Positions 11,386-62,160 of a stretch of DNA of 64,000 nt are shown here, one piece after another. The notes beneath the pieces were generated by a model, which was not told the DNA's origin, ran no database searches, and saw only the letters and a program-made list of their open reading frames with translations. Within the stretch, counting starts at the first letter, position 1. Each line of letters starts with the position of its first letter. The stretch lies in the NCBI RefSeq assembly GCF_044324875.1, contig NZ_CP172188.1. One strand, written 5' to 3'. Origin of the DNA: Escherichia coli. GTDB lineage: Bacteria; Pseudomonadota; Gammaproteobacteria; Enterobacterales; Enterobacteriaceae. The position numbers and the translations under genes were made by a program.

Positions 11386-11967
11386 TGCATACAGGGACTC
11401 GCTTTGGCACCGAGCAAGCCAAAGTTCAGCAGGTTTAGTGCGTAAAGTGGTTTCAGAGAGAGCACTTTACGGAGTAAACAACAAGACATGTTGAGCCACG
11501 GAAGGTCTTTTTAAGATGTTCATTGATGATGGTCCGGCAGAGAGTAACGGGACTCGCCGCATCGAATCATCATCAATGCACATCCTCAACATTAAGGAGG
11601 CATAGGGATTTTTTTGTGGCGATTACCTTTTGCCCTAAGTCTCCTTAATGTTGCGGTAATGCACCTATGCGGATGCGGCCTTGCATTGTGTCTTGAAAGA
11701 ATGGGGTAAGGCCGGGGATATCCCCAGGGGGAGGCACCCCCGCTGCAACGAACAGCCACAGACGGCAGTCGAGTGATGGAAACGTGCAAAGACTTTAAAC
11801 CTCGTTACGGCTGGCGTGGCAAACGCGACAACCGAGACAGAGCGGTGACGGGCGGAGAGAGTGCCGCATCAAGAAAGAAGCCGACTTGTGATCCCTTTCT
11901 GCGGGCATTTGAAAGTGAATCCAGCTCAGGCAGTCGGCTTCTTTCTTGTGTGAGATGTAGCGTATTT

Positions 11968-12451: not shown

Positions 12452-12528
12452 GATGGTGTAGCTCAGTAGGATAGAGCAGCAGCCTTCTAAGCTGTCGGTC
12501 GGTGGTTCGAATCCACCCACCATCGCCA
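12452..12528 (+). tRNA. tRNA-Arg (anticodon TCT)
   Basis: 77 nt; 7-bp acceptor stem GATGGTG/CACCATC, D-arm GCTC..GAGC, anticodon loop CTTCTAA, T-arm GGTGG TTCGAAT CCACC, encoded CCA. Confidence 0.9.
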
Positions 12529-12530
12529 AT

Positions 12531-12606
12531 GCCGGTTTAGCTCAGTTGGTAGAGCGCCTGCCTTGTAAGCAGGATGTCAGCGGTTCGAGTCCGTTAACCG
12601 GCACCA
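12531..12606 (+). tRNA. tRNA-Thr (anticodon TGT)
   Basis: 76 nt; acceptor GCCGGTT/AACCGGC, anticodon loop CTTGTAA, T-loop TTCGAGT, encoded CCA; P1 also carries a tRNA-Thr. Confidence 0.9.
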
Positions 12607-13561: not shown

Positions 13562-13637
13562 GGCCCTTTAGCTCAGTGGTTAGAGCTGGCGACTCATAAT
13601 CGCACGGTCACCGGTTCAAGTCCGGTAGGGGCCACCA
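13562..13637 (+). tRNA. tRNA with CAT anticodon, most likely tRNA-Ile2 (lysidine type) rather than elongator Met
   Basis: 76 nt; GGCCCTT acceptor, anticodon loop CTCATAA, T-loop TTCAAGT; resembles enterobacterial ileX-type tRNA as I recall it; P1 also encodes a tRNA-Ile. Confidence 0.85.
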
Positions 13638-14090
13638 TATTTGGTTGTAACACGGCGTATGGCACATGCGTCGTTAGCGGTCTGGTGACGTTATAGGGGT
13701 TACCTTTTCCCCTAGCTCAGGCAACAAACCAGGTAGCCGGAATGTGCAAGCCCCGTTCATATCGTCGGACCGAGGACTCACCATCCTGGCGATTCGGTGT
13801 GACAGCCGGAAGAGTACGGCGCACAACAGGAAAAGGCGTTTAATTAACGTGAGCGCCGTTTCCGTTGTGGTAATTGCGGCTATGCGCTCGTGACGAAGCC
13901 ATTTTCATTCACTACGTTCTGATAAGTGACGTCGCCAGGAGTGGCTAACCTGGCAGGTGGAGTCACCACCGCCACAACTCCTTTCAATTCATCATATAGC
14001 CGCTCAGGCTGTAACCCTTAATTAATACGAAGTTTCGACATCTCTATCGGTTTAACCGAGGGATGGTCGCGCGTGTAAAAAGGAGACGTT

Positions 14091-14666
14091 ATGTTAACGG
14101 CGAACGATAACGCGTATGCAGAAGCAGATCTCATATTGAGTGACTTCATCGGTCAGCGGGAACGCTGGACACAAAAGCGAGAGGAACTTTATGCCTCGTT
14201 AGTTCGCAAAGGTGTCAACATTGAAACCGCTCAAAGCGGCGATATGACGGTAGTCAGTGTTGGATTACATGGTGTGAGCGTGTCCGCAGCCAATCATGAG
14301 CCATACGTAGCGTTATCCGAGTCGATGGCAAGGCTAATTAAGTTTCTGAAGCAAACAGAAGCCAATAATGTTTTCATCGCCAAAAAGAACATCAATTTTT
14401 CTGCCGCCATGTTCTGGATGATGAAGGGGCTGGATGCCCGCCGGGCATCATGGCCTAAAGGGAGCTATTTATCGATGTTCCGTGGCAGCATTGGCAGCAA
14501 AGAAAAGCTCTTCGAATTCTTGCCGGAAGAGGCATTCGATATTGTGGAAGGGTGCGATGTGATGGTTATGCCTCGCCTGGTAATGATGAATGGGGATTTA
14601 CAGGCGCAGACAGACTGGTTCGCAACTGGCGTGGATATTATCGCAACTGACTGGGAGGCATTCTGA
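14091..14666 (+). CDS. hypothetical protein with C-terminal DUF2829/Tad2-like domain
   Basis: 191 aa; C-terminal LDARRASWPKGSYL ... IIATDWEAF. Confidence 0.5.
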   Translation: MLTANDNAYAEADLILSDFIGQRERWTQKREELYASLVRKGVNIETAQSGDMTVVSVGLHGVSVSAANHEPYVALSESMARLIKFLKQTEANNVFIAKKNINFSAAMFWMMKGLDARRASWPKGSYLSMFRGSIGSKEKLFEFLPEEAFDIVEGCDVMVMPRLVMMNGDLQAQTDWFATGVDIIATDWEAF

Positions 14667-15058
14667 TGTACGAGACAACAAAATTAAGCATTCACGAAGT
14701 CTCCAACGTGGAGTGGAATATCGTCACCTGTAAGATTGTATCGTGTAATGCTGCGCGTACTGATGCAGGCCATAAGAGCACGATAACAGGCTACATGGTA
14801 ATGGCTTATAGGGGATTGAGAGTTCGCTTTATCTGGAAAGCTCGGCAATTGACACCATTCAGAGAGCCGTCAATGCCATTAGAGGTAGAACAGGATTATT
14901 TAAGCCTGCCGGAAATAGACGGTGCAACGCTGGTGGATTCTGATGGTCGTAAGGCTGATTTTGAAGTCAGCTTAAAGGTGGCGCAGGCCGTAATTAATAA
15001 CTCACGTGGTAAGTGGATCGCTAAGGTAAAACACGTCGTTCGCTTATCTCGCTGGTAG
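14666..15058 (+). CDS. hypothetical protein
   Basis: 130-aa ORF; start overlaps upstream stop (TGATG). Confidence 0.5.
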   Translation: MYETTKLSIHEVSNVEWNIVTCKIVSCNAARTDAGHKSTITGYMVMAYRGLRVRFIWKARQLTPFREPSMPLEVEQDYLSLPEIDGATLVDSDGRKADFEVSLKVAQAVINNSRGKWIAKVKHVVRLSRW

Positions 15059-15070
15059 TGTTAGATGAAT

Positions 15071-15089
15071 GGAATTAATTTTCTAATAT
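15071..15089 (-). promoter_or_regulatory. operator-like motif copy (reverse strand ATATTAGAAAATTAATTCC)
   Basis: 15 of 18 consensus positions; upstream of the Lpa-like candidate. Confidence 0.35.
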
Positions 15090-15166
15090 AACCAACTTTT
15101 TGCCAGTCTATACAGAAATAACATTCTCATTATCATCCCCTCGGTCATTTCCTGCCTGGGGGATTA

Positions 15167-15559
15167 ATGGAGCATATCAGCAGCGCAGAAATTGCGGATA
15201 TCATGATTAGGGCTGACTGCTATCTGACAGTCACCGAAATCACCACTCTAGCTAAAGAAAAATATCCTCACCTTCATGTTTCACGCGTAAGTGTAACCAA
15301 CATCATTCGGCATTTTGTGCGGTCAAGCCGAGCTATTTGTGAGCTTGATGATCGTGTTTACCCACGGAAATACTGGTTGCATGGCCTGAACGGATATCAG
15401 TTCAAGGTGCGCGGGCGCACGCCTGAATACGGTAGCTTACTGGTTAAAAACTGTAGCAGGAAATCAGTCGAACAGGCGCGAAAAGAGCAACGAGAGCTGG
15501 TGGACATGGCGAATAAGCTGTGGAATGCCGCCGTTAAAAAGCGTGGTGTTGCTTTATGA
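15167..15559 (+). CDS. candidate late-promoter activator (Lpa-like), by synteny only
   Basis: 130-aa basic protein immediately upstream of the terminase genes and preceded by an operator-like site, as for lpa in P1; no sequence-level confirmation. Confidence 0.3.
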   Translation: MEHISSAEIADIMIRADCYLTVTEITTLAKEKYPHLHVSRVSVTNIIRHFVRSSRAICELDDRVYPRKYWLHGLNGYQFKVRGRTPEYGSLLVKNCSRKSVEQARKEQRELVDMANKLWNAAVKKRGVAL

Positions 15560-16920
15560 GTCTGGTTAATTGGGAGGAGCACCGCGCCCGCTTTATAGCG
15601 TTGCGTGAAGAAAAAGGGATCACTGTAAAGGAATACTGTGAGGAGCATGGCCTTAGCTTCAATACAGCCAGAAAGCATCTCAATATGAAAAAAAATGAGG
15701 TGCGGTCGCAGGTGAAGACTACAAAAAAAAGCACCAAATCACCTGAAAAAAAACGGGCAGGAAGAGCAAAAAAAAGGCCAGAAGAGGGTACAGAAACAAC
15801 AAAATTTACAGAAACTGACAATTCACAGAGCGGAAGTTCTTTCCGGAGCATGCCGAGAAAGAAAACTTCGGATCATAAAAATAACGACAATAATAACAAT
15901 GAGATAAAAGAATCTGTCAGGAGATCATTGCGCGAAAAAATGGCGAAAATGATCCCCACCGAAGATAAATGCGCCTCAAAAATCGAGGGATCTTCAGCAA
16001 TGATCCCTGGCGGTGCTGTGCAGCGTGCCACGTTGCCCACTACGAGTGTGGCTCGCGACATGATGAAGAACGGCGCAGAAGAGCACCTGCGGTTAGCAAT
16101 TCAAATGGCGCAAGAACGCGCACTTCAGTACCAAAGCATTGTTGATCAGGAGGCCGAACGCCTACAGGCGGAGATAGACGCCCTGGGTGATGAACAGCCA
16201 GAAGGAATGCACCCTGGGCAGCGACTTCTCGGTCTAATCAGTGACGCGGCCTACTACATGAACGATTTTATCAGTAGGTTGGCAGCGATATATCAGTCCG
16301 AACAAAAGCTGCGACAGGGTGATGAAAAACTTCGTCAGGGTGCTCGCCAGCAAGCATTCAGAGAGGCCGAGGCCAGAGAAAAACTCGAATTAGCACGCCT
16401 ACAGGCCGAACAGCGTGGCAAAGAGATTGAATATCGCATTGGCGCTGACGCACGCGCAGCCAGAGTTATCGCCGCCGCTATACGTATGCGTGAGCGCGAG
16501 GAGCTGGATGATATCGGTGTTGCTGAATACATCGAGCGTCAGGGTGTCAGTGTCCCGGCTATCCTCGCGGCGCGCGCGGCGAAAGCTATCACTCTTCTCG
16601 AGCCTCCAGTTTCTGACATCAATGATGTTGATGATGAACAGCTGGACAAAGAAGCGAAGGAGTTTGCATCGCTTCAGGCTAACCATCCGCAATGGCTGGC
16701 AGAGCGCCGGGCGGATGTGGCAACCATTGTTGAAGATCTGGGGTGCGGAGATTACGACCACAATGGCGAGCGTAAGGCTGGGGAATTCGAGGCCAACGAC
16801 GAAGAGTTGGATATTGACCCTTCGGCTACGGCTGAAATTTACGGTGATTATGATGCATCAGACGCAGGATATGACGCCGGAGATGATGATATCGCGATAG
16901 AACCGCCGGAGGACGACTAA
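15556..16920 (+). CDS. terminase small subunit (PacA-like)
   Basis: 454 aa; N-terminal HTH-like region, Lys-rich linker, acidic C-terminus; overlaps large-subunit start (TAATG). Confidence 0.55.
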   Translation: MSLVNWEEHRARFIALREEKGITVKEYCEEHGLSFNTARKHLNMKKNEVRSQVKTTKKSTKSPEKKRAGRAKKRPEEGTETTKFTETDNSQSGSSFRSMPRKKTSDHKNNDNNNNEIKESVRRSLREKMAKMIPTEDKCASKIEGSSAMIPGGAVQRATLPTTSVARDMMKNGAEEHLRLAIQMAQERALQYQSIVDQEAERLQAEIDALGDEQPEGMHPGQRLLGLISDAAYYMNDFISRLAAIYQSEQKLRQGDEKLRQGARQQAFREAEAREKLELARLQAEQRGKEIEYRIGADARAARVIAAAIRMREREELDDIGVAEYIERQGVSVPAILAARAAKAITLLEPPVSDINDVDDEQLDKEAKEFASLQANHPQWLAERRADVATIVEDLGCGDYDHNGERKAGEFEANDEELDIDPSATAEIYGDYDASDAGYDAGDDDIAIEPPEDD

Positions 16921-18428
16921 TGGCTGGTGGGCGCAAGATTAAATGCGTCACCAGCGATCCACGCTGGCGCGATATGGTAATCAAATACCGCTACAACTTT
17001 ACCCAGGCTGTTGTTGATATTTTCGGGATGTTTCCCTCCCACCAGCAGCAGGAGATTATCCAGTCCGTACAGCAAAAAGGGAGCAGAACCACTGTTACTT
17101 CTGGTCACGGTACAGGGAAATCGTCGTTAACGGCTATGTTGTTGCTGATTTATTTGATTCTGTTCCCCGATGCCCGTGTCATCATTGTTGCTAACAAGAT
17201 AGGCCAGGTTAAAACAGGCGTATTCAAATACGTTAAACAGTATTGGGCGAATGCAGTTAAGCGTCACGGGTGGTTACAGACCTATTTTGTCCTGTCTGAC
17301 ACCATGTTTTATGAACGTTCCCGCAAAGGGATCTGGGAAGTTCTCTGCAAAGGTTATCGACTCGGTAACGAAGAAGCACTGGCGGGGGAGCACGCGGCAC
17401 ATTTGCTTCTAATTCTGGATGAAGCATCAGGTATATCTGATAAAGCGATCGGCGTAATGACTGGCGCTCTGACTGAAGAAGATAACCGAATGTTGATGCT
17501 ATCCCAGCCAACAAGGCCAAGTGGTTATTTCTACGATTCGCACCATTCTCAAGCTAAAACCCCAGACAACCCGAAAGGGATCTGGACAGCAATTGTTCTT
17601 AACTCAGAAGAATCACCGTTCGTCACACCACAATTCATCAGGCAGAAGCTTCTGGAATATGGCGGGCGCGATTCTATTGAGTACATGGTCAAGGTTCTTG
17701 GTCAGTTTCCTCGGGAGATTAACGGCTATTTGCTTGGTCGTGATGAATGCGATCGCGCTGCGCGGCGCAAGGTGTTGTTGGAGAAAAACTGGGGATGGGT
17801 GGCTACTGCTGACGTTGGTAACGGGCGAGACAAGTCAGTTCTTAATATCTGTAAAGTGTCTGGTCACCGGGAAAAGCGGCGTGTTGTTAACTTTAAGGTA
17901 ATGGAAATGCCAGGGACTATGGACCCGCTGGCTTTTGCTGACTTTATATACAACGAATGCACGCCGGATAAATACCCGAATATTACAATCGCGGTTGACG
18001 CAGACGGTTTTGGTTCAGATACCTGTGCGCAGCTGGTGCGCCGTGGGGCTAATCCGGTACGGATTCGGTGGGGGAAACCCATGTTTTCGAACAAAGACAA
18101 GGAGCGTTTTGTTAACCAGCGTGCCTACGCAAATATTATGGCTCGTGATGCCATAAAGTCAGGTCGTATGCGAATAGACAGCGACCCTAAAACGGCAGAG
18201 CAAGCGTCAAAAATCCCCTTTTTACTTAATGAAGAAGGGAAGATGGCGATGATGCGCAAGGAGCACATGCGGCAAAAGCTGAACATCAAATCACCTGACC
18301 GATGGGATACCTACTGCTTTACAATGCTGGTGGACTATGTTCCTGCTAATGAAGATATCGGCGCTGAAATGGCTACCTTCCGCGATCAGGTTCTTGCAGA
18401 TGTGGAAATGCCAGAGCTGGATATATAA
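16920..18428 (+). CDS. terminase large subunit (PacB-like; ATPase + nuclease)
   Basis: 502 aa; Walker A TSGHGTGKSS, Walker B LLLILDEASGISD, long C-terminal nuclease-type domain. Confidence 0.85.
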   Translation: MAGGRKIKCVTSDPRWRDMVIKYRYNFTQAVVDIFGMFPSHQQQEIIQSVQQKGSRTTVTSGHGTGKSSLTAMLLLIYLILFPDARVIIVANKIGQVKTGVFKYVKQYWANAVKRHGWLQTYFVLSDTMFYERSRKGIWEVLCKGYRLGNEEALAGEHAAHLLLILDEASGISDKAIGVMTGALTEEDNRMLMLSQPTRPSGYFYDSHHSQAKTPDNPKGIWTAIVLNSEESPFVTPQFIRQKLLEYGGRDSIEYMVKVLGQFPREINGYLLGRDECDRAARRKVLLEKNWGWVATADVGNGRDKSVLNICKVSGHREKRRVVNFKVMEMPGTMDPLAFADFIYNECTPDKYPNITIAVDADGFGSDTCAQLVRRGANPVRIRWGKPMFSNKDKERFVNQRAYANIMARDAIKSGRMRIDSDPKTAEQASKIPFLLNEEGKMAMMRKEHMRQKLNIKSPDRWDTYCFTMLVDYVPANEDIGAEMATFRDQVLADVEMPELDI

Positions 18429-18453: not shown

Positions 18454-19491
18454 TTACCAGAGTTTAGCGGCGTGCTGTGTTTGGGAGAAAGTGAACCCGT
18501 AACGTTCTTCTATGGTTTTACCGTATCTTTTCCGCGCGTCTGTCAGTTTTATGCCTGTCAGGTCATCTCCGGATGTCATCATTACGTCTAACAACTCCAG
18601 ATCCATTTTATTCAGTCGCGCCATCGCTTCGCGTGCTGTCTGTATTTTACGCTCAATGATATGGCGAATAGCCGGATCGGCTTCCTCAAGCATTTTGGCT
18701 GATTTGTTCTTTAAGCTCTCATTGCGGATGTCGATGTTTCGCAAGATGTATGACTTCGCAACATAGCTTGGTTGGTGTTTCTCCAGATCGCGAACGCGAT
18801 AGAGACTAAAGTCACCAAGCAGGCCGCAAGGTATCGACTCAACCCCAGAATAAATAGTAATGCTGCGACGTTCGCCGACATTATTAACAACGGGCACTGT
18901 GGTGTTCGGAAGTTTTGCGAACACTAAGGCTCCGTGTGCGCCTACCCTGAATCGTGACAGAGCATTGCTGCCTTCAATGTTTGTTGTAAGCACTACATCT
19001 GTGTATCCATCTTTGCGCGCCCGGTAAACTTCCCCTTCAGGTTCTGATGCGAAAAAACGGCGCTCTTCTTCAAGTGCACCAACAATCTGCGAAAATATCT
19101 TGTTTTTCAGGCTTTTCTTTATAATTGCATCATATTTTTTGAGCAGATTTTCGCGCGTAAATGAGCGGGTGGTGGTCGCGCTTTGCACAACAATATGCGT
19201 GCTTTGATTTGTGTCCTCGATAATGAATGGGATCGGAGAATATACAGACTCAACAATGTTAGACGCTTTGCCGTCAGCGTTACGGCACAAGTCAACAAAG
19301 GCTTTCCATTCTGTGAGGCACTTTTCAGCTTCTTCTAGCACATTCTGATCATGTGTTAGTGCAACATGGCGGAATTCCTCGCCGGCATAACTGGTATCAT
19401 GGAAAACAGAGTTTGCGACCACCAGCTCTTTCCACCGTTCAGCGGTTTGCAGGAACCGTTTGTACTCTTTCTCGATCGACTTCTTACTCAT
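18454..19491 (-). CDS. candidate C1-like master repressor (by position and operator cluster; sequence not confirmed)
   Basis: 345 aa; convergent with pacB as c1 is in P1; its upstream region 19504..19700 carries 2-3 operator-like motifs. Confidence 0.35.
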   Translation of the reverse strand: MSKKSIEKEYKRFLQTAERWKELVVANSVFHDTSYAGEEFRHVALTHDQNVLEEAEKCLTEWKAFVDLCRNADGKASNIVESVYSPIPFIIEDTNQSTHIVVQSATTTRSFTRENLLKKYDAIIKKSLKNKIFSQIVGALEEERRFFASEPEGEVYRARKDGYTDVVLTTNIEGSNALSRFRVGAHGALVFAKLPNTTVPVVNNVGERRSITIYSGVESIPCGLLGDFSLYRVRDLEKHQPSYVAKSYILRNIDIRNESLKNKSAKMLEEADPAIRHIIERKIQTAREAMARLNKMDLELLDVMMTSGDDLTGIKLTDARKRYGKTIEERYGFTFSQTQHAAKLW

Positions 19492-19503
19492 TATTCCTAC
19501 TCG

Positions 19504-19520
19504 ATTTAGTTTTCTAACAT
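19504..19520 (-). promoter_or_regulatory. operator-like motif copy (reverse strand ATGTTAGAAAACTAAAT)
   Basis: 13 nt upstream of the candidate repressor start codon. Confidence 0.5.
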
Positions 19521-19691
19521 AAAATTACTATGACAAATCTATGCCGAATAACAGGGTGAGTAAAGGATCAAGATGCATTTTTTTATCATCCAATTTAGAA
19601 AATTCTGCTTAAAAACTGCCAGGCATAACTTAAAGCCCACGCCAGCAATGCATTGCCCATCTGCGCGGAAAGGAAAAAAATTCCTAAGTTT

Positions 19692-19725
19692 CTAACTTTA
19701 GATAATTGGCATTATTTAAAGTTAG
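19692..19725. other. lox-like 34-bp recombination site (13-bp inverted arms, 8-bp spacer)
   Basis: CTAACTTTAGATA-ATTGGCAT-TATTTAAAGTTAG; arms differ at one position; 9 of 13 arm positions shared with loxP ATAACTTCGTATA; 150 bp upstream of the Cre-like gene. Confidence 0.55.
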
Positions 19726-19876
19726 GCTATAATTATGGGTAGATGATCAGTATTGACATCACTGAAAATACGTGCCTCGAATCAAAGGCTTGAATCTTGA
19801 AAATTAACTTATAGCTACCCTGTCATTTTTATATTTTTCGCGTAGCGTCATCTGTATATAGAGGTTAAATAGTTTC

Positions 19877-20905
19877 ATGAGTGAATTAATTATCTCTGGC
19901 AGCTCCGGTGGTTTTCTGCGCAACATTGGCAAAGAGTACCAGGAGGCCGCAGAAAACTTTATGCGGTTCATGAATGACCAGGGGGCTTACGCGCCGAATA
20001 CTTTGCGCGATCTCCGGTTAGTGTTTCACTCCTGGGCGAGATGGTGTCACGCTCGCCAGCTCGCCTGGTTCCCGATCTCACCAGAGATGGCCCGCGAGTA
20101 TTTTCTTCAGCTGCATGATGCTGATCTGGCTTCGACCACCATTGATAAGCACTACGCCATGCTTAACATGCTGCTTTCGCATTGTGGCCTTCCGCCACTT
20201 TCGGATGATAAAAGTGTTTCTCTGGCTATGCGGCGCATCCGGCGTGAAGCGGCAACTGAAAAAGGCGAACGAACAGGCCAGGCTATACCGCTGCGGTGGG
20301 ACGATCTGAAACTGCTCGACGTCCTGTTGTCCAGGTCAGAACGGCTGGTGGACCTGCGCAACCGGGCTTTTCTCTTTGTTGCATACAATACGCTGATGCG
20401 TATGTCGGAAATCTCGCGTATTCGTGTAGGAGATCTGGATCAAACAGGTGACACTGTCACGCTACATATTTCACACACGAAGACAATAACGACCGCCGCC
20501 GGGCTTGATAAGGTGCTTTCCCGTCGCACTACCGCTGTGCTGAATGACTGGCTGGATGTTTCCGGGCTTCGCGAACATCCTGACGCAGTGTTGTTCCCGC
20601 CGATACACCGTAGCAATAAGGCCAGGATCACGACAACGCCCCTTACTGCACCTGCAATGGAGAAAATATTCAGCGACGCCTGGGTGTTGCTGAATAAAAG
20701 AGATGCTACGCCAAACAAAGGAAGATACCGGACGTGGACCGGGCATAGTGCACGCGTCGGGGCCGCTATTGATATGGCTGAAAAGCAGGTGTCTATGGTG
20801 GAGATCATGCAGGAAGGAACCTGGAAGAAACCGGAAACACTTATGCGGTATCTTCGCCGTGGCGGCGTGTCTGTGGGGGCTAATAGCCGCCTGATGGATT
20901 CGTAA
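19877..20905 (+). CDS. cre: Cre-family tyrosine recombinase
   Basis: 342 aa; blocks resembling P1 Cre as recalled: MLNMLLSHCGLPPLSDDKSVSLAMRRIRRE, DLRNRAFLFVAYNTLMRMSEISRIRVGDL, WTGHSARVGAAIDMAEKQVSMVEIMQEGTWKKPETLMRYLR (R-H-R-Y region). Confidence 0.85.
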   Translation: MSELIISGSSGGFLRNIGKEYQEAAENFMRFMNDQGAYAPNTLRDLRLVFHSWARWCHARQLAWFPISPEMAREYFLQLHDADLASTTIDKHYAMLNMLLSHCGLPPLSDDKSVSLAMRRIRREAATEKGERTGQAIPLRWDDLKLLDVLLSRSERLVDLRNRAFLFVAYNTLMRMSEISRIRVGDLDQTGDTVTLHISHTKTITTAAGLDKVLSRRTTAVLNDWLDVSGLREHPDAVLFPPIHRSNKARITTTPLTAPAMEKIFSDAWVLLNKRDATPNKGRYRTWTGHSARVGAAIDMAEKQVSMVEIMQEGTWKKPETLMRYLRRGGVSVGANSRLMDS

Positions 20906-20922
20906 ATTAAAATTCTAACACA
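20905..20922 (-). promoter_or_regulatory. operator-like motif copy (reverse strand TGTGTTAGAATTTTAATT)
   Basis: Upstream of the 20979..24600 operon. Confidence 0.45.
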
Positions 20923-20978
20923 TCTTTTTAGATTAACGCCTTTGCTGTAAAGTACCCTCGCCTATTTAGGAGGGTGCT

Positions 20979-21323
20979 TTGCAGAGTCAAATCACGGAAT
21001 CAAGACGCTTCAAGGTGGATGGTTACACCGTAACCTTCGCCGCTGGTGTTAAGAACAGTCATGCTGTCGTTGTGTTCGGCATCATGACCGGGCTTGAGGC
21101 CGTCCCTGTGTTTACCCTCGAAAAAAACTGGCGAAATCTGGAGGAAGCAGAAAGCTACGTCCGGAAAGTAACCATCATTGCCGCCGAAAAACTCCTGGCC
21201 CACTATCAGGAAAATTATCGCACTATGGTCGAGAAGATTAATCTCGCTTTCACTCGCCCCACTACCGGCTTTATTGCACCGGATACTAATGCCGGTCGAT
21301 ATCCTGCAAGGGGGCGTCGGTGA
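20979..21323 (+). CDS. hypothetical protein
   Basis: 114 aa; TTG start with strong RBS TAGGAGGG. Confidence 0.45.
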   Translation: MQSQITESRRFKVDGYTVTFAAGVKNSHAVVVFGIMTGLEAVPVFTLEKNWRNLEEAESYVRKVTIIAAEKLLAHYQENYRTMVEKINLAFTRPTTGFIAPDTNAGRYPARGRR

Positions 21324-22748: not shown

Positions 22749-23516
22749 ATGGAAAGCACTAAAACAATTCAATACCGCTTGCGTAATGGCCTGCTGGTGG
22801 CTGTTAACGCCGACATGTCACTGCCGTTTGACACGATTGAACGCACTATCATGACGTATCTCGGCTTTAATGAAGAGCTGAATGAAGAGCATGGCGTAGC
22901 TATATGGAGTGATGCAGACAGCGGCGTTCGTCGTTACATCACCGCCAGGGGCAAAGACTACTCTCTGGAAGAACTGTTTGCCCTTGCGCAGTCTTTCGAA
23001 TGTGTAGCATTAGACCTGTTTAATGATCCTGCTATAGCGCAACGACTTATACGCGAGCTTGGGCTATCCGTTACACCAATTATATTTAAAAATGGCAGCC
23101 TGACTGGCACATGGCGCGTAGAACGCATCTCAAACTACCTTCCATATAACCGACAGTTAAATGGAGTAATCTCCGGCGTTAACCAGCCCGTAGCGTGTGA
23201 AAATGTAAACCTGGTTGTCGCTGTTTTGGCAACCGCATGTCGTGTTATCGGTTTGGCTAAACAGGCATTTATTCATTTCCCAAATGGTGCAGAAGGTAGC
23301 GCAGAGATTATCGCGTGTGATTTCGAATTTACCTGGATGCTACGCGAATATCTGGACCAAACAGTATTCCGTGCCGAAGAACTGGATATGTATATCACGT
23401 CAACGATTCCAGACGATGTGCGAGCTGAAGCAATCGCTACAGCCAGGGCGAAATGCCGTGCGGCGATTGCAGAACAGGCCAAAGAAGAAGTTAAGGAAGT
23501 GGCAGATGGCGACTAA
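22749..23516 (+). CDS. hypothetical protein
   Basis: 255-aa ORF in the same operon. Confidence 0.5.
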   Translation: MESTKTIQYRLRNGLLVAVNADMSLPFDTIERTIMTYLGFNEELNEEHGVAIWSDADSGVRRYITARGKDYSLEELFALAQSFECVALDLFNDPAIAQRLIRELGLSVTPIIFKNGSLTGTWRVERISNYLPYNRQLNGVISGVNQPVACENVNLVVAVLATACRVIGLAKQAFIHFPNGAEGSAEIIACDFEFTWMLREYLDQTVFRAEELDMYITSTIPDDVRAEAIATARAKCRAAIAEQAKEEVKEVADGD

Positions 23517-24600
23517 GAGCAATATTTATAAAGATCCGCGCTGGCTGTCGCTGGTGGAGAAATATAAAGACAATTGGGTACTGGCAGCAAAAGAATTGTT
23601 TGATATTGATTTAAGCCACCAGCAACAACAAATTGTTGAAGCTATACAGCCCAATAATGCAAAAGCTACTGTCACCACTCCGTATGGGATCGGACGACCG
23701 CAAGTGCTTGCTGTTATTAGTACCCTTTATACGATTATGTATCCTGATTCCCGGACAGTAATTGTTTATCCAAAATCAAATGTTTGCAAAAGAGGAATTG
23801 TTGCATATGTGTGGCAATGTTGGGAGGCATTGCTGAAAAAACAACCTTTTATCATTGAGTATTTTAAGGTCGGTGATAGCGGTCTGATGTTCAATGAATT
23901 TTGGGGAATGTGCTTTTGTAACTTCCGCCTTAACTATGAAGATAGCATTGCAGGTCACTACGCCGACCATCTTTTATTCATTATTGTGGATTCCGCACAT
24001 ATCAGCGATCGGGCATACAGCATTGTGTGGGCAAGCATGACTAGTGGTGATTCACGCATATTGCTCACTTCAATTCCGTCACCAGAGGAAATAGGCTTTT
24101 TTTATGATTCACATCATGGACGTGCTTTAGCTGAAGATAATCCGAGTGGTGTATATAAAGCCATTAAGCTGAGTGCGGAGGATTCACCATTTATTACCCA
24201 AGAATATCTTGATCATTTTGCCGAAAGGTATGGCGGGCGAAATAGTGATGACTATCGTCGTATGATTCTTGGTGAGTTCCCTGGTATTAGGGAGGCTGTT
24301 CTTGAATCAGATATGCCGAAGACAATGCGCTTTTCGATGCCTGATGGTAGTGAATGGACAATACCATTACGAGTGATAGCCCGGCATCATGCGCAGCACC
24401 ACGCCAAAAAACATGGCGTCACGACATTAGAATGGTTGAAATCGCACACCATTCCACTCTTCACTGCAGATCACAATGCTATCGTTGAGTGGGCAAAAAC
24501 AATTCCGTGGGAGAATGTCGCTGAATACGCCCACATGCTAAAACCGCCGAAAGACAGGCAAGAAATTAGCTGGCTGACAGCAGAAAAAATCATTGAGTGA
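23506..24600 (+). CDS. terminase-large-subunit ATPase-domain paralog with degenerate Walker motifs and no nuclease domain
   Basis: 364 aa from ATG 23506 (RBS AAGGAAG); aligns to PacB-like 16920..18428 (DPRW..KY, SHQQQ, YDSHH, DNP, YGGR, FPG) but Walker A GHGTGKS becomes PYGIGRP and Walker B ILDEAS becomes IIVDSA. Confidence 0.65.
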   Translation: MATKSNIYKDPRWLSLVEKYKDNWVLAAKELFDIDLSHQQQQIVEAIQPNNAKATVTTPYGIGRPQVLAVISTLYTIMYPDSRTVIVYPKSNVCKRGIVAYVWQCWEALLKKQPFIIEYFKVGDSGLMFNEFWGMCFCNFRLNYEDSIAGHYADHLLFIIVDSAHISDRAYSIVWASMTSGDSRILLTSIPSPEEIGFFYDSHHGRALAEDNPSGVYKAIKLSAEDSPFITQEYLDHFAERYGGRNSDDYRRMILGEFPGIREAVLESDMPKTMRFSMPDGSEWTIPLRVIARHHAQHHAKKHGVTTLEWLKSHTIPLFTADHNAIVEWAKTIPWENVAEYAHMLKPPKDRQEISWLTAEKIIE

Positions 24601-38139: not shown

Positions 38140-38430
38140 GGCATTATCGTGGGGTATATTTCTACGGCACCTTAGAAAAACGGGTGCCGGGATTGGAACC
38201 CCGGATAATGCAAAAGGCGACACAGACGCCGAAAGCGTCTTTTCTTGTGTCATGCCATCGCACAGCCATACGTAGCGTTTAGCTCAGAGATCAATGGTAG
38301 TGCTGGCTGGGCTGCCGAAAGGCAGGCCGGTTCCCTTTTGCGCCGGTAGTTCCAACCCAGTCAGTGCTACCGCCATTGAGATTGGAACCTCACGCGGTAG
38401 CTCCTTAAATTAGCAAAAGGAGGCTGCCAA
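38140..38430 (+). ncRNA. candidate c4-like antisense RNA / leader region of immunity module A
   Basis: Structured leader upstream of the icd-like gene: direct repeats GATTGGAACC (38192, 38383) and a partly complementary GTTCCAACC (38346); hairpin GACGCCGAAAGCGTC + T-run near 38223. Confidence 0.3.
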
Positions 38431-61899: not shown

Positions 61900-62160
61900 T
61901 TCAGGCTTATATTCACGCCGTTGCAGCAAATTCTGCGACCGGGTTTAGCAGCCTGAATGTACATGCGGACAACCGCAGATATCCGATATTGCGGTATTTT
62001 TGTGTCCGTAAAACCATGTTACGCCCGAATTATGGTGGGGCGTGATGGGGAGGCTTCGGCCTGCTGGTTTCATGTACGCCAGTCTGCTAACCCCGTCACG
62101 TCCTGCCACCCGTTTAGCAGCGGGTAGCAGGTTGTTAAACCTGTACATGAGGCCGTAACT
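61900..62160 (+). ncRNA. candidate c4-like antisense RNA locus of immunity module B
   Basis: Paired elements a=TTTAGCAG and b=GTACATG occur at 61945/61958 and again at 62112/62141; complements (CATGTAC at 62066, CTGCTAA at 62085) lie between in reversed order. Confidence 0.35.

What the first reader, a model, noticed from the sequence alone, without database searches (positions are those of the whole stretch)
19692..20905. Divergent Cre/lox pair: Cre-family recombinase with a novel 34-bp lox-like site
The recombinase shares clear blocks with P1 Cre but is substantially diverged. About 150 bp upstream lies a 13-8-13 site CTAACTTTAGATA-ATTGGCAT-TATTTAAAGTTAG whose arms differ from loxP at 4 of 13 positions, with an unrelated spacer. 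By analogy with Dre/rox and VCre/VloxP this is likely an orthogonal recombinase/target pair of biotechnological interest.
Basis: partly seen in the sequence, partly recalled or inferred. Interest (0 to 1): 0.65.

Follow-up and report, generated by a model that had tools for sequence, protein, structure and literature searches.

The report
Known Dre/rox recombinase system
This is not a new Cre/lox-like pair: it is the well-known Dre recombinase of phage D6 with its rox target site (one base different), sitting in a common D6-like phage-plasmid of E. coli.

Summary
A unique 34-bp inverted repeat lies at 19692-19725, 151 bp upstream of a 342-aa Cre-family gene (19877-20905). The novelty claim fails. 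The protein is 342/342 identical to Dre of phage D6, although the gene differs from D6 at 39 synonymous bases. The inner 32 bp of the site match the annotated D6 rox crossover site at 31/32; the difference is A->G at 19701 in the c1-side arm. The context is pacA-pacB-c1-rox-dre on a ~90-kb D6-like plasmid prophage, as found in 120 plasmid records and 100 of 5426 complete E. coli genomes, never on a chromosome. In 35 related loci every Dre homolog has a rox-type site 183-185 bp upstream. The G allele recurs in 10 of the 33 Dre-clade loci, some with Dre-identical proteins. Two modest extras are inferred, not shown. First, rox is a sharp mosaic breakpoint between relatives, consistent with natural crossovers there. 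Second, an 11/12 sigma-70 promoter match has its -35 inside rox and an invariant TATAAT beside the right arm, suggesting Dre autoregulation. Verdict: already known, low interest.

The parts
19692..19725 (.). rox recombination site, a natural 'G' allele. The core 32 bp at 19693-19724 match D6 rox at 31/32. The outer C/G bases extend the palindrome to 15-4-15.
   Evidence: D6 annotation misc_recomb 'rox'
19693..19706 (+). Left (c1-side) 14-bp arm, TAACTTTAGATAAT. The G at 19701 replaces the A of canonical rox. This is arm position 9 of 14, or position 10 in loxP-style 13-bp numbering, which lies within the 8-10 triplet that distinguishes rox from loxP.
   Evidence: PMC4957104
19707..19710 (+). 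4-bp asymmetric spacer TGGC, identical to D6 rox. It sets the orientation of the site and is the centre of the crossover region.
   Evidence: PMC4777119
19711..19724 (-). Right (dre-side) 14-bp arm. Its reverse complement, TAACTTTAAATAAT, is the canonical rox arm.
19706..19733 (+). Sigma-70-type promoter match (11 of 12) directed towards dre. The -35 TTGGCA (19706-19711) spans the last base of the left arm, the spacer and the first base of the right arm. The gap is 16 nt and the -10 is TATAAT (19728-19733). The TATAAT is invariant in all Dre-clade loci while the 3 nt between it and rox vary.
   Evidence: consensus match plus conservation; function inferred
19877..20905 (+). dre, a 342-aa Cre-type tyrosine recombinase, 100% identical in protein to D6 Dre. 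The catalytic residues R175, K202, H290, R293, W316 and Y325 are all present.
18454..19491 (-). Context: c1 repressor homolog, transcribed divergently from dre. 168 of 1038 nt differ from D6 c1.
16920..18428 (+). Context: pacB (large terminase subunit). It completes the pacB-c1-rox-dre synteny seen in D6, which parallels pacB-c1-lox-cre in P1.

Best explanation
The locus is the Dre/rox site-specific recombination module of a D6-like P1-type plasmid prophage (phage-plasmid) of E. coli. Shown here: the protein is Dre, and the site is rox with one arm substitution. From published work on Dre and Cre: one Dre monomer binds each 14-bp arm. Two rox sites with four Dre monomers synapse. Tyr325 cleaves and exchanges one pair of strands and then the other in the central region through a Holliday junction, with no accessory factors. 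The asymmetric TGGC spacer sets the orientation. By analogy with Cre/lox in P1 (inferred): the single rox per genome lets Dre circularise the terminally redundant virion DNA after injection, and lets it resolve plasmid-prophage dimers before partition. Two further inferences come from this analysis. First, Dre-mediated crossovers between co-resident relatives reassort the c1-side and dre-side segments exactly at rox. Second, a promoter whose -35 lies inside rox and whose -10 abuts the right arm drives dre, so Dre bound at rox would repress its own transcription.
For: Identity to Dre: 342/342 aa against both D6 records, despite 39 nucleotide differences. All six catalytic residues are in place (numbering as in PMC4777119). 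The Dre-type residues R/P/K sit at the Cre K43/R259/G263 equivalents (PMC4957104). Site: 31/32 match to the D6 feature annotated as rox, and it is unique in the window. Synteny pacA-pacB-c1-rox-dre-orf-orf-dut matches D6. Replicon: 120 plasmid records of about 90 kb; 100 of 5426 E. coli genomes, with all 102 places on plasmids and 0 on chromosomes; window 850-25699 is collinear with pGF4-B at 98.7-99.99%. Co-occurrence: all 35 informative loci have a rox-type site starting 183-185 bp before the ATG, and 10 of the 33 Dre-clade loci carry the G allele, including L004 and L009 whose proteins are identical to Dre. Tolerance: Dre recombines pox and sites with 2-4 half-site mismatches (PMC4957104; PMC10250229). 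Crossover footprint: window vs D6 is 61% identical in the 200 bp to the left and 95% to the right. Window vs L030 is 97% left and 74% right. L008 vs L017 is 75% left and 100% right. 53 of 528 locus pairs are discordant, and the switches map to the edges of rox. Promoter: 11/12 match, with TATAAT invariant down to the 70%-identity homolog L035 while the adjacent bases vary.
Against: Nothing here measures recombination on the G allele. The substitution lies in the arm triplet (positions 8-10) linked to rox-versus-loxP discrimination, so reduced binding to that arm is possible. The biological roles (cyclisation, dimer resolution) are carried over from P1 Cre/lox and were not tested for D6-type elements here. 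I could not read the primary Dre paper. The mosaic boundary could also come from homologous recombination, or from a fast-evolving cassette next to a conserved island. The promoter is only a consensus match plus conservation. Across the 1.65-kb region scanned, the number of promoter-like hits (3) is not above the shuffled expectation (2.1 +/- 1.4).
Confidence: 0.95

Rival explanations
1. One reading: a new, diverged Cre-like recombinase with a novel target, forming a further orthogonal pair alongside Cre/loxP, Dre/rox and VCre/VloxP.
For: The protein is only 41% identical to Cre. The arms differ from loxP at 4 of 13 positions. No loxP-like site exists in the window. The exact G-allele arm string appears in none of the searchable papers.
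Against: The protein is 100% identical to Dre, and the site matches annotated rox at 31/32. Canonical rox and the G allele both occur next to identical Dre proteins, so no new specificity is implied.
Confidence: 0.02
2. The G substitution cripples one arm, so this rox allele is a decaying or weakened site and the module is losing function in this lineage.
For: The change lies in arm positions 8-10, the triplet that separates rox/pox from loxP and that faces the specificity residues (PMC4957104). It also makes the palindrome imperfect.
Against: The allele is seen in 10 of the 33 Dre-clade loci, including lineages whose recombinases differ from Dre by about 35 residues (L030, L032), so it is old and has persisted. 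dre is intact and under strong purifying selection (39 nucleotide differences from D6, no amino-acid change). Dre tolerates 2-4 half-site mismatches (PMC10250229). Dre-side haplotypes are shared between G-allele and A-allele elements (L008 vs L017, 100% identical on the right), which suggests exchange between the two alleles.
Confidence: 0.05
3. The palindrome acts mainly as a transcriptional operator/promoter element for dre or c1, not as a crossover site. The sharp mosaic boundary then reflects a hypervariable cassette next to a conserved regulatory island.
For: A near-consensus promoter overlaps the site. The roughly 135 bp to the left of the site (19557-19691) exist in at least three unrelated versions among relatives.
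Against: The same 32-bp sequence is the experimentally used Dre substrate (PMC4777119; PMC12331466). A regulatory role would add to recombination, not replace it.
Confidence: 0.02
4. The recombinase is a phage integrase and the site is an attP for chromosomal integration.
For: PGAP annotates the gene generically as 'tyrosine-type recombinase/integrase'.
Against: All 102 places in complete E. coli genomes are on plasmids and none is on a chromosome. The site is a simple symmetric lox-type site. The element carries P1-like plasmid-prophage functions such as phd/doc.
Confidence: 0.01

Closest known systems
Dre/rox of Escherichia/Salmonella phage D6 (GenBank AY753669, MF356679; Sauer & McDermott 2004)
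   Same: The protein is identical (342/342). The site position is the same, with rox starting 184 bp before the ATG. The spacer TGGC and the right arm are the same. The pacB-c1-rox-dre-orf-orf-dut synteny is the same, and the TATAAT next to the right arm is the same.
   Different: One base in the left arm (A->G at 19701). 39 synonymous differences in dre. The sequence immediately to the left of rox is unrelated, and c1 is much more diverged (168 of 1038 nt). The window is therefore a relative of D6, closest to E. coli plasmids such as pGF4-B and NZ_OY754373.1 at 99.9%.
Cre/loxP of phage P1
   Same: It is a homologous tyrosine recombinase: 41% identity, E = 5e-69 to solved Cre structures, same catalytic residues. 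It has a lox-type inverted-repeat target just upstream of the gene, the same pacB-c1-site-recombinase layout, and presumably the same roles in cyclisation and dimer resolution.
   Different: The target differs (arms 4 of 13 different, spacer unrelated, 14-4-14 instead of 13-8-13), and no loxP is present in the window. In P1, lox lies 436 nt from cre with the cra ORF between them, and three annotated cre promoters all lie downstream of lox. Here the site centre is 169 nt from the ATG and the best promoter match overlaps the site.
Panto/pox (Pantoea sp. aB)
   Same: It is a Cre-type recombinase whose target arms differ from rox at one base, and Dre and Panto each recombine the other's site (PMC4957104). 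That is a published precedent for Dre tolerating a single arm change.
   Different: Panto is only about 52% identical to Dre, and its spacer is incompatible with rox. The window's protein is Dre itself. The 55-56%-identity loci L037 and L038 may belong to this group, but that was not verified.

Membership tests
Dre/rox (phage D6 Cre-type recombination system) | Recombinase protein is Dre | tested here: met
   342/342 identical to AAV84949.1 and ASR76376.1
Dre/rox (phage D6 Cre-type recombination system) | Catalytic residues R175, K202, H290, R293, W316, Y325 | tested here: met
   All present at those positions. Numbering from PMC4777119; K202 is assigned as the Cre K201 equivalent from the alignment.
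Dre/rox (phage D6 Cre-type recombination system) | Dre/Panto-type specificity residues R, P, K at the equivalents of Cre K43, R259, G263 | tested here: met
   Alignment to Cre gives TLRDL vs TWKML and TAPAMEKIF vs STRALEGIF. The residues are named in PMC4957104.
Dre/rox (phage D6 Cre-type recombination system) | 32-bp rox target: 14-bp inverted repeats TAACTTTAAATAAT around a 4-bp asymmetric spacer | tested here: met
   31/32 match to the annotated D6 rox. Spacer and right arm are identical; the left arm has A->G at 19701.
Dre/rox (phage D6 Cre-type recombination system) | Site lies just upstream of dre, between c1 and dre, in a pac-c1 region of P1 type | tested here: met
   pacB 16920-18428, c1 18454-19491 (-), rox 19692-19725, dre 19877-20905. 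Spacing is the same in 35 related loci.
Dre/rox (phage D6 Cre-type recombination system) | Dre-dependent recombination between two copies of this exact (G-allele) site | not testable with these tools
   Indirect support only: the allele persists next to identical Dre, Dre is known to tolerate mismatches, and mosaic breakpoints fall at rox.
Cre/loxP (phage P1) | Recombinase is Cre or a near-identical ortholog | tested here: not met
   41% identity, 133 of 322
Cre/loxP (phage P1) | loxP target (13-bp arms ATAACTTCGTATA, 8-bp spacer) | tested here: not met
   No match with up to 3 arm mismatches anywhere in the window. The site's arms differ from loxP at 4 of 13 positions each.
Cre-type tyrosine recombinase superfamily (simple, accessory-factor-independent, lox-like target) | Full-length homology to Cre, with the catalytic residues and a palindromic target adjacent to the gene | tested here: met
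   E = 5e-69 over residues 22-341 against PDB Cre chains
Integrative phage tyrosine integrase (attP/attB) | Element found integrated in host chromosomes | tested here: not met
   0 of 102 places in 5426 complete E. coli genomes are chromosomal
D6-like P1-type plasmid prophage (phage-plasmid) | About 90-kb circular plasmid with P1/D6-like packaging, immunity and addiction modules | tested here: met
   The closest records are 88-96-kb plasmids. pGF4-B has pacA, pacB, c1, dre, dut, doc/phd, umuD-like, theta-like and ref, and is collinear with the window. C4 antisense RNA is present. The group is described in PMC6799933.

The most novel reading that the evidence does not exclude
In D6-type phage-plasmids, rox may be more than a cyclisation and dimer-resolution site. 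It could double as the core of the dre promoter, with the -35 in the crossover region and the -10 abutting the right arm, so that Dre occupancy sets its own expression. It could also be the natural joint at which Dre reassorts the immunity (c1) side and the dre side between co-resident relatives. The asymmetric G allele would travel with the c1-side half-site as a marker of such exchanges. Neither feature was found described in the papers I could search, and the layout differs from P1, where the annotated cre promoters lie downstream of lox.
Probability: 0.35. Interest if true: 0.3.

Novelty: already known. Interest (0 to 1): 0.1.

Why it matters
As a discovery it matters little. Dre/rox has been a standard genome-engineering tool for about twenty years, and D6-like plasmid prophages are a documented, widespread group. 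The useful result is negative: no new orthogonal recombinase is on offer here. Three by-products have small value. First, there is a catalogue of natural rox alleles: the G arm allele, plus the central variants TGGC->GGGG, TGGC->TAGC and TGGCA->TGGAG. These could inform the design of heterotypic rox sites and show what Dre tolerates in nature. Second, population-level evidence suggests that rox is an active crossover joint between phage-plasmids. Third, the hypothesis that Dre autoregulates through a promoter embedded in rox is testable. It is also relevant to anyone placing rox sites upstream of genes in bacteria, because the native right-hand flank would supply a near-consensus promoter.

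Tried and rejected
1. I could not read the primary Dre paper (Sauer & McDermott 2004) by DOI or by PMC534624; it is not held. Its content is cited only through later papers.

2. NCBIfam gave only weak XerC/XerD-type hits, far below the cutoffs. It has no specific model for Cre or Dre, so it was uninformative.

3. I looked for a P1-type pac cluster of TGATCA/G hexamers in and around pacA (14000-17500) and found only two isolated hexamers. The position of pac relative to rox was therefore not established, and I dropped it.

4. I asked whether the all-synonymous divergence of dre from D6 (39 nt, 0 aa) signals something unusual. Neighbouring genes show the same regime (pacB pN/pS about 0.04, c1 about 0.10). 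It is strong but ordinary purifying selection, not an anomaly. The '1.0 nonsynonymous' in the Nei-Gojobori count is a path artefact of a two-step synonymous codon change.

5. I tried to confirm that the L037/L038 site is the published pox site by searching the Panto paper for the sequence. The sequence appears only in figures, so the search found nothing. This is left unverified.

6. The integrase/attP reading was rejected because no chromosomal copy exists.

7. I did not run structure prediction, fold searches or the large protein database searches. Exact identity to an annotated, experimentally characterised protein made them unnecessary.

Full report
**1. Observation**

It has no second match even with 3 mismatches, and none is expected by chance. 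As an inverted repeat it has 15-nt arms (19692-19706 and 19711-19725), 93% complementary, separated by 4 nt. A 342-codon ORF runs from 19877 to 20905 on the + strand, starting 151 bp after the site. The protein is clearly homologous to Cre: E = 5e-69 to solved Cre structures and 41% identity to P1 Cre.

**2. What it is**

A megablast of 19500-21000 against phage records hits only phage D6. There the matched features are annotated 'dre: tyrosine recombinase' and 'region of crossover (rox) site for Dre recombinase'.

- **Protein.** Translating the window ORF and both D6 genes gives identical proteins (342/342), although the genes differ at 39 of 1029 nucleotides.
- **Site.** The inner 32 bp (19693-19724) equal the annotated D6 rox, TAACTTTAAATAATTGGCATTATTTAAAGTTA, except for A->G at 19701. 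The spacer TGGC and the right arm are identical.
- **Catalytic residues.** Those listed for Dre (R175, H290, R293, W316, Y325; PMC4777119) and the Cre-K201 equivalent K202 are all in place.
- **Specificity residues.** The residues that distinguish Dre and Panto from Cre at Cre K43, R259 and G263 are R, P and K (PMC4957104).

**3. Which element carries it**

The window is not D6. To the left of rox the sequence diverges strongly from D6, with c1 differing at 168 of 1038 nt. The closest records are E. coli plasmids of about 90 kb, with 99.9% identity to NZ_OY754373.1 and to pGF4-B (NZ_CP172219.1).

- 120 PLSDB plasmids from Escherichia, Salmonella and Shigella carry the region.
- 100 of 5426 complete E. 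coli genomes carry it, always on a plasmid and never on the chromosome.
- The pGF4-B annotation shows pacA, pacB, c1, the recombinase, dut, doc/phd, an S24 (UmuD-like) peptidase, a theta-subunit homolog and ref.
- Window 850-25699 is collinear with pGF4-B at 98.7-99.99%.

This is the D6-like plasmid-prophage group already described in the literature (PMC6799933). The layout pacB-c1-rox-dre parallels pacB-c1-lox-cre in P1.

**4. Does the site travel with the recombinase?**

A scan of IMG/VR with the protein returned 36 loci whose recombinases are 100% to 55% identical to the query. One (L036) is cut inside the gene and has no upstream sequence, leaving 35 informative loci. In all 35, a rox-type 14-4-14 site starts 183-185 bp upstream of the start codon. 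Among the 33 Dre-clade loci:

- 23 have A at the variable arm position.
- 10 have the window's G. These include L004 and L009, whose proteins are identical to Dre, and L030 and L032, whose proteins differ from Dre at about 35 residues.

The G allele is therefore an old, recurrent natural polymorphism and not a lesion private to this window. The natural variants of the central bases are GGGG (L021), TAGC (L035) and TGGAG in place of TGGCA (L031). The two 55-56%-identity loci (L037, L038) carry a distinct site, TAACTTTATATAAT-GTCA-GTTATATAAAGTTA.

Published data show that Dre recombines pox, whose arms differ from rox by one base (PMC4957104), and sites with 2-4 half-site mismatches (PMC10250229). 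A single change in one arm is therefore expected to be tolerated. One caveat applies. The changed base is arm position 10 in loxP-style numbering, inside the 8-10 triplet that distinguishes rox/pox from loxP, so a quantitative effect cannot be excluded. The G-arm string occurs in none of the searchable papers.

**5. Mechanism**

The chemistry is established for Dre and Cre. One monomer binds per arm, four monomers and two sites form the synapse, the Tyr325 nucleophile carries out sequential strand exchange in the central region through a Holliday junction, and the asymmetric spacer sets directionality (PMC4777119; PMC10250229). The biological roles are inferred from P1 Cre/lox and from there being one site per genome. 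Those roles are cyclisation of terminally redundant virion DNA and resolution of plasmid dimers.

**6. Two additional inferences**

*(a) rox is a mosaic joint.* I aligned 3 kb centred on rox from 33 sequences.

| Pair | Left of rox | Right of rox |
|---|---|---|
| Window vs D6 (200 bp each side) | 61% | 95% |
| Window vs L030 (200 bp each side) | 97% | 74% |
| L008 vs L017 (300 bp each side) | 75% | 100% |

In all, 53 of 528 pairs are at least 97% identical on one side and at most 90% on the other. At base resolution the switch from related to unrelated sequence falls at the outer edge of the left arm (window vs D6), or two bases after the right arm (window vs L030). The G allele travels with the c1-side flank TTCCTAA(A/G)TTTC; L010 is an exception, with that flank but an A.

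This is what Dre-mediated crossovers between co-resident relatives would leave behind. It does not exclude homologous exchange, or a hypervariable cassette at 19557-19691 lying next to a conserved island.

*(b) A promoter is embedded in rox.* The best sigma-70 match in the region (11 of 12) has its -35, TTGGCA, at 19706-19711 across the spacer, a 16-nt gap, and its -10, TATAAT, at 19728-19733, reading towards dre. TATAAT is invariant in every Dre-clade locus down to the 70%-identity homolog, while the three bases between it and rox vary (GGC, AGC, GTA, TCA, GGT). Dre bound to the right arm would sit between the -35 and the -10, which suggests autorepression.

In P1 the three annotated cre promoters lie downstream of lox, and a cra ORF separates lox from cre. 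This arrangement would therefore be a difference from P1. It remains a consensus-plus-conservation inference.

**7. Rivals**

- **A new orthogonal pair.** Excluded by the identity to Dre/rox.
- **A decaying site.** Unlikely, given that the allele persists, that dre is under purifying selection, and that G-allele and A-allele elements share dre-side haplotypes.
- **An attP/integrase system.** Excluded by the absence of any chromosomal copy.

**8. Verdict**

The system is already known. Interest is low. The only points of possible follow-up value are the natural rox alleles, the breakpoint pattern at rox and the promoter embedded in rox.

Noticed in passing
window 23215-24600 (+); about 23506-24600 by the annotation of the relative pGF4-B: A second, diverged copy of the large terminase subunit PacB. 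It is 37% identical to the N-terminal 258 aa of PacB (16920-18428). The Walker A motif GHGTGKS is replaced by PYGIGRP, and the Walker B-like LILDEAS by FIIVDSA, so it is probably not an ATPase. pGF4-B annotates it as a hypothetical protein. D6 lacks it at this position and has pdcA-doc-phd directly after the isaA-like gene. Its function is unknown.
   Followed up: partly
window 19557-19691: The roughly 135 bp between the conserved c1 start region and rox are hypervariable. At least three mutually unrelated versions (44-65% identity) abut the left arm of rox in relatives, while the c1 5' end just beyond (19362-19556) is 97-99% conserved against D6. The content and function of this cassette are unknown.
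   Followed up: partly
window 38167-38377 and 61907-62113: Two separate C4 antisense RNA loci of the P1 immI type. One is at 38290-38377, preceded by an isrK match at 38167-38245. The other is at 62028-62113, preceded by a c4-a1b1 target match at 61907-61959. Having two such loci on one element may be worth a look.
   Followed up: no
window 12452-12525, 12531-12603, 13562-13634: Three tRNA genes on the phage-plasmid. The relative pGF4-B annotates tRNA-Arg, Thr, Ser and Ile in the same region.
   Followed up: no
window about 11728-11740: The relative pGF4-B carries an IS4-like IS421 transposase insertion here that the window lacks.
   Followed up: no
L037 and L038, about 183 bp upstream of the recombinase gene (locus position about 2818-2849): Recombinases 55-56% identical to Dre are paired with a distinct symmetric site, TAACTTTATATAAT-GTCA-GTTATATAAAGTTA, whose arms differ from rox at one base. 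This may be the Panto/pox type (Panto is reported as 52% identical to Dre), but the pox sequence could not be retrieved to check. The TATAAT next to the right arm is absent there.
   Followed up: partly
L021, L031, L035 (rox sites about 184 bp upstream of the dre homolog): Natural variants of the central bases of rox: TGGC->GGGG (L021, Dre with 2 aa changes), TGGCA->TGGAG (L031, 89% identity) and TGGC->TAGC (L035, 70% identity). These could act as naturally heterospecific rox sites.
   Followed up: no
window 19877-20905 vs D6 dre: All 39 nucleotide differences from D6 dre leave the protein unchanged (pS 0.15). Against pacB's pN/pS of about 0.04, roughly 4 amino-acid changes would be expected. 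Dre is under notably tight constraint, although more distant relatives in the clade do differ at 20-36 residues.
   Followed up: yes
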